Source: Octopus sinensis (Eukaryota). Taken from it: DNA of 64,000 bases. Shown in pieces: positions 13,812-14,200 of this stretch. The notes under the pieces are model-generated. The model was not told the origin of the DNA. It saw only the letters and a list, made by a program, of their open reading frames with translations, and did no database searches. The DNA lies in contig NC_043003.1 of assembly GCF_006345805.1 (NCBI RefSeq), positions 92,194,001 to 92,258,000 of the forward strand, read 5' to 3'. The position numbers and the translations under genes are program-made. Numbering within the stretch: position 1 is the stretch's first letter; each line of letters opens with the position of its first letter.

Positions 13812-14200
13812 GAGGGCATTATACATACATGCCAGAGGGCATTATACATACATGCCACACGCTAAGAGGGACAATTAGTCATTTCTCTACCCAAATATTA
13901 CTAATCCCACCGAATGCATTTTTCAAAGTAAGACATTTAAAAATAATAGACCTGTATCACAGTGATTTCATACTTACGTATTCATCAGCAGGCCTGAATG
14001 TATCGTAAATAAACGACCCTGTCCCGCTTAAGCCGATCAGCTAACTGATCAACATCAACGAAGCACATGGGTGAGTTTACATATATTACATACTGTAAAT
14101 GGCATACTTTTACGAATTGCATTTCGGGAAAGGAAAAGTTTTTTCGGAATAAAAATTTAGCAATTAAGTAGTTTCCTTATTAAGTAGTTGTCCTTAATTG

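What the first reader, a model, noticed from the sequence alone, without database searches (positions are those of the whole stretch)
13949..13994. Intact canonical type I hammerhead ribozyme in a short element inserted in (TA)n
Seen: the minus strand reads GGCCUG CUGAUGA AUAC-GUAA-GUAU GAAA UCAC-U-GUGA UA CAGGUC. Every core base is present, all three helices form, stem II has a GNRA loop and the cleavage triplet is AUA. It lies in an approx. 390-bp non-coding island (13812-14202) bounded by (TA)n. Established: minimal type I HHRs with palindromic stem III occur in Penelope-like element LTRs and in non-autonomous retrozymes, which can produce circular RNAs. Inference: this is a probably still cleavable copy of an octopus Penelope-LTR or retrozyme family.
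Basis: partly seen in the sequence, partly recalled or inferred. Interest (0 to 1): 0.8.

Follow-up and report, generated by a model that had tools for sequence, protein, structure and literature searches.

The report
Octopus retrozyme moved like Penelope elements
A complete self-cutting-RNA (hammerhead) motif sits in one clipped copy of a 476-base non-coding repeat present over 500 times in this genome; its insertion pattern suggests it likely borrows the enzymes of Penelope-like jumping genes, and its RNA is predicted to cut mainly when two copies pair.

Summary
Observation confirmed, with one correction: stem III cannot close on a 1-nt loop, and the lone motif's best fold is inactive. The 'island' is a 5'-truncated, 5'-inverted copy of a 476-bp tandem non-LTR retrozyme (F1): 542 exact core matches against 0 control, arrays up to 12 units, and 2,014 more motifs in sister families with covarying stems. 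Natural tandem dimers fold spontaneously into a double hammerhead. Insertions sit in (TA)n with two fixed ends 130 nt apart; 56 of 56 readable two-armed insertions carry one of each, the same pattern as this genome's autonomous Penelope-like elements. No sequence link to any of them was found, so the pLTR reading is unsupported. An intact L1/Tx1-type LINE sits at one nucleotide of the unit at 8 loci; in one, both arms copy the LINE junction, pointing to a long linear template rather than rolling-circle copying. Cleavage and circular RNA are untested. The scan noted similar Penelope-type insertion patterns before for ribozyme-free repeats in other genomes. Verdict: new member of a known kind, with mechanistic value.

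The parts
13948..13995 (-). Type I hammerhead motif: 7-bp stem I, CUGAUGA, 4-bp stem II + GUAA loop, GAAA, near-palindromic stem III, AUA triplet; predicted cut between 13955 and 13954
   Evidence: identical to the commonest form among the copies held
13802..14168 (-). Arm A: unit positions 111-477 of the 476-bp F1 retrozyme unit (5'-truncated monomer, 97.6% identical to a natural unit of L003), ending at fixed End A (C at 13812, then the unit's own TA tract)
14169..14203 (+). Arm B: short inverted arm, unit positions about 87-121, ending at fixed End B (the Penelope-type 'tail' end)
13811..13857 (-). 23-bp direct repeat at End A, predicted hairpin; at 8 other loci an L1/Tx1-type LINE is inserted between the two copies
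13881..14153 (-). Approximate span of the long imperfect rod (unit 126-192 pairing with 331-397) that encloses the hammerhead and an upstream hairpin
13723..13811 (.). Left (TA)n target tract
14202..14240 (.). Right (TA)n target tract

Best explanation
The motif is the hammerhead of one 5'-truncated, 5'-inverted copy of a 476-bp non-coding tandem repeat (a non-LTR retrozyme) that is likely mobilised in trans by a Penelope-like element. Shown: family, arrays, (TA)n targets, two fixed ends, covarying stems. Predicted by folding: multimeric transcripts form a double hammerhead, pairing stem III of neighbouring units, and would release 476-nt monomers. The monomer or circle folds into a stable branched rod with the ribozyme switched off, so this solitary copy would cut poorly unless paired with another RNA. 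Inferred: a Penelope-type RT/GIY-YIG complex cuts both strands in (TA)n and starts reverse transcription at two sites 130 nt apart (End A and End B), one on each DNA end. The two cDNAs stop at random points and are joined head to head. The template is at least sometimes a long, uncleaved linear read-through RNA. Odds by step: retrozyme family 0.95; Penelope-type mobilisation 0.85; dimer-dependent cleavage 0.65; linear precursor used at least sometimes 0.7; circular RNA made in vivo 0.5.
For: Family: 542 core matches vs 0 control; the first 100 fall in 55 clusters (my count); period about 476, 12 full units at C12; 2,014 further motifs with the same stem III vs 0 control, in units of 475-497 bp at 67-76% identity. 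Structure: 9 of 16 hammerhead pairs show two-sided changes in 10 motifs, 0 of 500 shuffles as high on four of five measures, slid controls much lower. 32 of 104 consensus pairs of the whole unit show two-sided changes in 7 units. The circular F1 unit folds at -127 kcal/mol, z -7.0, against -94 antisense; sense z is lower than antisense z in 5 of 5 subfamily units. Dimer: the unconstrained best fold of a natural F1 dimer is the double hammerhead, 7.8 kcal/mol below two monomers; stem III cross-pairs in 16 of 17 natural dimers, with a complete double hammerhead in 13 of 17. Penelope pattern: of 80 non-redundant F1 loci, 56 are two-armed with both ends readable, and all 56 have one End A plus one End B (2 with an off-position B; L043's A end read in L042); 21 are one-armed and 3 unresolved. 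The same rule appears in F2 and F3 and in autonomous elements with a CX4CxxC linker + GIY-YIG, tail about 45-50 nt. Two internal RT start sites that give the genomic tail were shown in vitro for Poseidon (PMC11167929, parts 1-2 read). Linear template: 140 arm starts are spread over the unit, only 2 at the cut site (about 1.5 expected). In L259 both arms reproduce the same LINE-retrozyme junction in register and share private variant 167A. L032 and L261 mix unit haplotypes within one array.
Against: No cleavage, transcript end or circle was observed. No autonomous partner with homologous ends was found in 103 loci, and the retrozyme tail (130 nt) is much longer than those partners' tails or the published 30-40 bp. 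One of five covariation measures was not above shuffles (168 of 500), related sequences can beat shuffles without structure, and stem III is invariant partly because it was in the search pattern. Pair 10.1-11.1 is A-U here and is not a standard pair in 5 of 10 motifs. Antisense strands also fold better than shuffles in 3 of 5 units (z -2.5 to -4.4). 4 of 17 dimers did not give a complete double hammerhead. Many arrays are homogeneous, and L205 alternates with period 2; both also fit rolling-circle copying. An efficient double hammerhead and uncleaved templates pull against each other and need kinetic or protein control. In one study only 1 of 9 predicted Xenopus dimers cleaved in vitro (10.64898/2026.07.22.740005). 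The linear-template argument rests mainly on one locus in an assembly with many small indels.
Confidence: 0.82

Rival explanations
1. The unit is the pseudo-LTR of an autonomous Penelope-like element not yet sampled, and the window copy is a solo terminal fragment of it.
For: Same ends, tail, inversion and (TA)n targeting as autonomous elements. Xenopus retrozymes are related to pLTRs (10.64898/2026.07.22.740005). Only 103 loci of many thousands of GIY-YIG candidates were examined.
Against: In the loci mapped, arms continue into further units or stop at a junction, not into an ORF; the Penelope ORF fragments found in some loci are not contiguous with the unit. Units are head-to-tail up to 12-15 copies. 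No homology to 103 element loci; their hammerheads are minimal U3-A8 types.
Confidence: 0.08
2. Classical retrozyme cycle only: monomers are cut out, circularised by a host ligase, and new arrays arise by rolling-circle reverse transcription of the circle.
For: Stable, covarying rod in the circular unit, with the ribozyme off. Arm starts ignore the cut site, as they would on a circle. Many arrays share array-private variants in all units. This is the model proposed in PMC7229834.
Against: L259 needs a template of 6 kb or more holding LINE-bearing and LINE-free units with an intact hammerhead site. Mixed-haplotype arrays (L032, L261) are not expected from one monomeric circle. Both routes may coexist.
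Confidence: 0.25
3. A satellite or minisatellite that spreads at the DNA level (unequal crossing-over, microhomology repair in TA tracts), with a relic ribozyme.
For: Tandem arrays, TA-rich junctions, period-2 pattern in L205.
Against: Dispersed over many contigs with two nucleotide-precise 3' ends and random 5' ends; strict A+B rule; strand-asymmetric RNA folding and compensatory changes across families.
Confidence: 0.03
4. The element is mobilised by a LINE (SINE-like), for instance the associated L1/Tx1-type family.
For: An intact LINE is physically joined to the unit at 8 loci.
Against: No shared 3' tail with the LINE, which lies antisense and inside the unit. This LINE makes 13-17-bp target duplications in non-TA targets, whereas the retrozyme ends run into (TA)n in the two-end pattern of Penelope-like elements. 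No tRNA found in 8 loci.
Confidence: 0.04

Closest known systems
Animal non-LTR retrozymes (Cervera & de la Pena 2020, PMC7229834; parts 2-4 of 6 read), especially the Mytilus galloprovincialis 350-390-bp repeats
   Same: ORF-free, low-GC tandem unit with one type I hammerhead; strongly self-paired predicted circle; coexists with Penelope-like elements; like the mussel motif, no loop1-loop2 contact is evident to me (not formally tested).
   Different: Longer unit (475-497 bp vs 150-450); long 5+5-bp self-complementary stem III; ribozyme predicted off in the circle (that paper predicts it free in most animal circles, some mussel ones excepted); documented two-end insertion rule; circular RNA not shown here.
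Vertebrate non-LTR retrozymes as non-autonomous Penelope derivatives (Li, Clavereau & Pollet 2026, 10.64898/2026.07.22.740005; parts 1-3 of 5 read)
   Same: Supports Penelope-dependent mobilisation; monomers, dimers and multimers dispersed through the genome.
   Different: Their evidence is co-occurrence and pLTR homology; here no pLTR homology was found and the evidence is the insertion pattern. Their model of local array growth after a single insertion does not explain arrays in both arms with fixed ends.
Poseidon PAc of Anolis (Frangieh et al. 2024, PMC11167929) and the Penelope-like insertion structure (Craig et al. 2021, PMC8557442, passages read)
   Same: Two internal RT start sites giving a tail at one end, inverted 5'-truncated second arm, AT-rich or (TA)n targets, hammerhead cleavage not defining the 5' ends.
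   Different: No ORF; tail 130 nt instead of 30-40 bp; canonical C3-G8 hammerhead rather than a minimal one.
Newt/axolotl satellite and Penelope minimal hammerheads that cleave as dimers (as described in PMC7229834, PMC4209133, PMC7761336)
   Same: A palindromic stem III allows a double hammerhead in tandem transcripts.
   Different: Here stem III could close as a monomer; the predicted off-state comes from core UGAU pairing with stem-III AUCA.
Tx1-clade LINEs that target other transposons: Tx1L in Tx1D, Tx1-Mar in Mariner-N4 (Kojima 2015, PMC4494074, passages read)
   Same: A two-ORF APE-RT LINE recurrently inserted at one position of another mobile element, in opposite orientation.
   Different: The target here is a retrozyme; 8 of 44 copies (18%), just under that paper's 20% criterion; Tx1 clade membership was not tested by phylogeny.

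Membership tests
Type I hammerhead ribozyme | Conserved core CUGANGA / GAAA / UH | tested here: met
   model built from other families hits at 47.3 bits
Type I hammerhead ribozyme | Three helices, open stem I, covariation | tested here: met
   9 of 16 pairs with two-sided changes (stems I and II); stem III invariant
Type I hammerhead ribozyme | Active fold favoured as a monomer | tested here: not met
   2.4 kcal/mol above the best fold; favoured as a dimer
Type I hammerhead ribozyme | Rfam RF00163 hit | tested here: not met
   uninformative (74 of 265,813 candidates scored)
Type I hammerhead ribozyme | Site-specific self-cleavage | not testable with these tools
   needs in vitro transcription
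Type I hammerhead ribozyme | Loop 1-loop 2 tertiary contact | not tested
   stem II length and loop vary widely among sister families
Animal non-LTR retrozyme | Short tandem unit with one hammerhead per unit | tested here: met
   476-bp period, up to 12 full units
Animal non-LTR retrozyme | Non-coding, low GC, no LTR or tRNA head | tested here: met
   GC 0.32-0.35; no ORF of 100 aa or more over the window copy; no tRNA in 8 loci
Animal non-LTR retrozyme | Highly self-paired predicted circle | tested here: met
   z -7.0; z -2.0 to -7.2 in 5 units
Animal non-LTR retrozyme | Expressed as linear and circular RNA | not testable with these tools
   only assembled contigs of runs with a guessed type were available
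Pseudo-LTR of an autonomous Penelope-like element | Flanks an RT-GIY-YIG ORF or is homologous to such a pLTR | tested here: not met
   no homology in 103 element loci; a sample, not the whole genome
Pseudo-LTR of an autonomous Penelope-like element | Minimal hammerhead lacking a real stem III | tested here: not met
   canonical C3-G8 core with a long stem III; the genome's own elements carry U3-A8 minimal motifs
Penelope-type mobilisation | Two fixed 3' ends, tail at one end only, inverted 5'-truncated arm | tested here: met
   56 of 56 readable two-armed loci; same in autonomous elements
Penelope-type mobilisation | (TA)n or AT-rich targets | tested here: met
   28 of 28 true A ends and 25 of 26 true B ends run into TA repeats, after removing 6 and 1 misclassified rows
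Penelope-type mobilisation | Priming by a Penelope protein on this RNA | not testable with these tools
   partner not identified
Tx1-clade target-specific LINE (passenger) | ORF1 zinc knuckle + ORF2 APE-RT-zinc domain, target duplications | tested here: met
Tx1-clade target-specific LINE (passenger) | RT phylogeny within Tx1; over 20% of copies in one target | tested here: inconclusive
   8 of 44 copies at one nucleotide; 3 of 67 homologues carried a name, none decisive; no reference tree built

The most novel reading that the evidence does not exclude
Animal retrozymes spread through a two-site Penelope complex that copies long uncleaved linear precursors, not mainly by rolling-circle copying of their circular RNA, with the hammerhead acting as a dimer-only switch. 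In this genome an L1/Tx1-type LINE has become a hyperparasite of the retrozyme: it inserts repeatedly at one nucleotide of the unit and is then carried as a 5.3-kb antisense passenger to new chromosomes.
Probability: 0.45. Interest if true: 0.75.

Novelty: new member of a known kind. Interest (0 to 1): 0.55.

Why it matters
How animal retrozymes move is open. PMC7229834 names Penelope-like elements only as a candidate and assumes circular templates; the 2026 preprint rests on co-occurrence and pLTR homology in vertebrates and says the mechanism remains to be worked out. This family gives a genomic record: a strict one-A-plus-one-B end rule shared with the genome's own autonomous elements, and a passenger LINE that marks the template. 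It also names the RNA positions to test (cut site, End A, End B) and young candidate partner proteins (open frames of 772-776 aa). The hammerhead by itself is ordinary. No cephalopod retrozyme turned up in the searches (the giant squid genome paper lists 235 Rfam Hammerhead_1 hits), and no paper held the terms. The library lacks most subscription papers. The supplement of PMC7229834, file 1 of PMC4209133 and the preprint's tables could not be read; repeat databases were not available. The family may therefore already be catalogued.

Tried and rejected
Rfam scans: no hammerhead hit; genome-wide RF00163 listed other families and scored too few candidates to say anything about this site. Partner search: GIY-YIG protein search, pLTR search and Pfam family search gave several autonomous families, none homologous to the unit (best profile E 2.1). 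Expression: no RNA holder listed; contigs of 4 runs were laid but cannot show strand, ends, level or circularity, and the end-to-start joint is also genomic. Core conservation within F1 (176 of 179 units without a substitution in 11 core bases) was rejected as evidence of selection because about half the loci were picked by a core pattern. Enrichment of 5' ends at the cut site: not found (2 of 140). tRNA or SINE head: none; tRNA genes at the LINE's other targets: none in 8 loci. A single LINE insertion inherited with the retrozyme haplotype: an AU test rejects monophyly of the five 442A-haplotype LINEs (p 3e-35; the group was defined, but after I had seen the shorter tree, from which 6 truncated rows were dropped); a founder amplified into L255/L257/L259/L260 remains possible. 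Repeat finding on the whole window was swamped by microsatellites. The 89-aa Cys-rich ORF stayed unidentified. No earlier scan notes exist for this genome.

Full report
1. Observation. The minus strand of 13949-13994 reads as stated, with all core bases, a 6-7-bp stem I, a 4-bp stem II with GUAA loop and an AUA triplet whose last base is plus-strand 13955. Rfam did not detect it (one search scored 74 of 265,813 candidates and is uninformative). A covariance model built from nine motifs of sister families, without the window copy, finds it at 47.3 bits against 11.1 for the next hit in the window. Stem III cannot close on a 1-nt loop. In the 48-mer, the window arm and the circle, the hammerhead fold lies 2.4 kcal/mol above a fold in which core UGAU pairs with stem-III AUCA.

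2. What it belongs to. The island matches a family (F1) with a 476-bp head-to-tail unit; one array holds 12 full units. The 30-nt core pattern occurs 542 times, control 0; the first 100 matches fall in 55 clusters, which extrapolates to about 300 insertions. A relaxed pattern excluding F1 finds 2,014 more motifs, control 0, in sister units of 475-497 bp, 67-76% identical where they align between families. Runs carrying five organism labels hold words of the unit, and laid contigs of X1, X7, X16 and X19 cover 28-30 of 30 bins. The window copy is unit 111-477 on the minus strand plus an inverted unit 87-121 on the plus strand, between two (TA)n tracts. It is the only copy in the window.

3. RNA structure. 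Across ten motifs, 9 of 16 hammerhead pairs show two-sided changes (5 of 7 in stem I, 4 of 4 in stem II). Four of five measures beat all 500 shuffles, one did not (168 of 500), and pair 10.1-11.1 is non-standard in 5 of 10. Stem III never varies, but it was part of the search pattern. The circular F1 unit folds at -127 kcal/mol (z -7.0, 0 of 100 shuffles), the antisense at -94. Sense z is lower than antisense z in 5 of 5 units, though antisense is also below shuffles in three. The consensus fold of 7 units is a branched rod closed by stem I, with 32 of 104 pairs showing two-sided changes. Without any constraint, a natural F1 dimer folds into the double hammerhead, 7.8 kcal/mol below two monomers. 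Stem III cross-pairs in 16 of 17 natural dimers from three families, and the double hammerhead is complete in 13 of 17. This predicts a ribozyme that is on in multimers and off in monomers and circles, as described for dimeric hammerheads (PMC4209133, part 1 read). It is a prediction; only 1 of 9 predicted Xenopus dimers cleaved.

4. Insertion pattern. F1 copies end at two fixed places: End A (unit 467, before the unit's own TA tract) and End B (unit 121 of the next unit), 130 nt apart. 28 of 28 true A ends and 25 of 26 true B ends run into TA repeats (6 and 1 misclassified rows removed). Of 80 non-redundant loci (best BLAST hits, the first pattern matches on C1-C3, and 6 from the LINE search), 56 are two-armed with both ends readable and all 56 have one A and one B. 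Two of them have an off-position B, and one A end was read in the neighbouring locus. 21 loci are one-armed (13 A, 6 B, 2 other) and 3 are unresolved. The 140 arm starts (one spurious) are spread along the unit, with 2 at the cut site. The two arms often share locus-private variants (L061, L203, L218, L222, L259). F2 and F3 show no AA or BB either, with a few aberrant ends. The genome's autonomous Penelope-like elements (RT + CX4CxxC linker + GIY-YIG, open frames of 772-776 aa) follow the same rule with tails of about 45-50 nt, in 8 loci where both ends were seen. This is the structure drawn in PMC8557442 and explained by two internal RT start sites in PMC11167929. The unit has no detectable homology to 103 such loci, and their hammerheads are minimal U3-A8 types, so the partner is unidentified and the unit is not shown to be a pLTR.

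5. A passenger that marks the template. An intact 5.29-kb LINE (ORF1 zinc knuckle, ORF2 1138 aa APE-RT-zinc) has 44 copies by its 3'-end pattern. Eight sit antisense at unit 445/446 of F1, on six contigs. The retrozyme on both sides of the LINE carries the same haplotype within a locus, but at least four different haplotypes across loci, and the LINE tree does not follow them. This points to several independent insertions at one nucleotide; other retrozyme-free targets of this LINE also recur. L257 and L259 show a 13-14-bp target duplication. In L259 the End-A arm holds the whole LINE plus one unit, and the End-B arm holds the same unit plus the LINE's first 153 bases with the same junction. 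The simplest reading is that both arms were copied from one read-through RNA of 6 kb or more with an uncut hammerhead. A later fold-back duplication or a misassembly is the alternative. Mixed-haplotype arrays (L032, L261) agree with linear templates; homogeneous and period-2 arrays (L205) also fit circles, so the rolling-circle model of PMC7229834 is not excluded as a parallel route.

6. Comparison and verdict. By the features testable here it is a non-LTR retrozyme (for the definition), closest to the mussel repeats, and it works like a non-autonomous Penelope-dependent element. It fails the tests for a pLTR. Transposon-targeting Tx1 LINEs are known (PMC4494074); I found no paper on one in a retrozyme, within a limited library. 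Two earlier scan notes report Penelope-type insertion patterns for tRNA-bearing, ribozyme-free repeats in other genomes; I did not test them and had reached my reading before. Papers seen: PMC8557442, PMC6962438, PMC4494074 and PMC7761336 as passages; PMC7229834 parts 2-4 of 6; the 2026 preprint parts 1-3 of 5; PMC11167929 parts 1-2 of 4; PMC4209133 abstract, part 1 of 4 and one supplement file. The clade labels Neptune/Nematis (from the linker) and Tx1 (from domain order, recalled) were not tested by phylogeny. Verdict: a real hammerhead motif, a new member of a known kind; interest 0.55 for the testable mechanism rather than for the motif.

Noticed in passing
L193:2263-7548 (G000 C1:154.83 Mb); also L255-L261: Intact L1/Tx1-type LINE inserted antisense at the same nucleotide of the retrozyme unit at 8 loci in at least 4 haplotypes; other copies cluster in two further repeated targets (many on C28 and C2), which were not identified.
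   Followed up: partly
run X7 contig 24 laid on L003:1379-1429 (unit 64-114): 8 of the 13 A's of unit 60-120 read as G on the hammerhead strand in one contig of depth 9; genomic units show A>G there in 0-4 of about 180-196. Looks like A-to-I hyper-editing, perhaps of the duplex between two arms, but the run type is a guess, the organism label differs, and no matched DNA exists.
   Followed up: partly
L102:1555-1600, L005:1250-1290, L330, L337, L338: Autonomous Penelope-like families here carry minimal hammerheads with the U3-A8 core variant and 4-nt palindromes (CCGG, CTAG, CATG), upstream of two fixed (TA)n ends.
   Followed up: partly
L173-L175; L314-L323: Further hammerhead families in the genome: one with the same stem III but a different unit, and Rfam RF00163-positive motifs, two of them 431 bp apart on C16.
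   Followed up: no
window 13520-13780 and 14312-14561; 14205-14317 and 14495-14600: The insertion lies in a TA tract inside an older, 77-79% identical direct repeat of roughly 290-bp period.
   Followed up: no
window 60485-60751 (+): 89-aa ORF with a signal-peptide-like N-terminus and 8 cysteines; no Pfam hit, no Atlas hit above 0.78. Possibly a secreted peptide.
   Followed up: partly
window 43169-43834 (+) and 37638-39240; 17286-17771 (+): Pif1-helicase (Helitron-like) remnant and Tc1-type transposase remnant.
   Followed up: no
window about 4240-7400: Local duplication with a period of about 1.66 kb, among LINE RT fragments.
   Followed up: no
L032 (G000 C12:27.39 Mb): In the 12-unit array three units change the stem-II loop from GUAA to GAAA, still a GNRA loop.
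   Followed up: no
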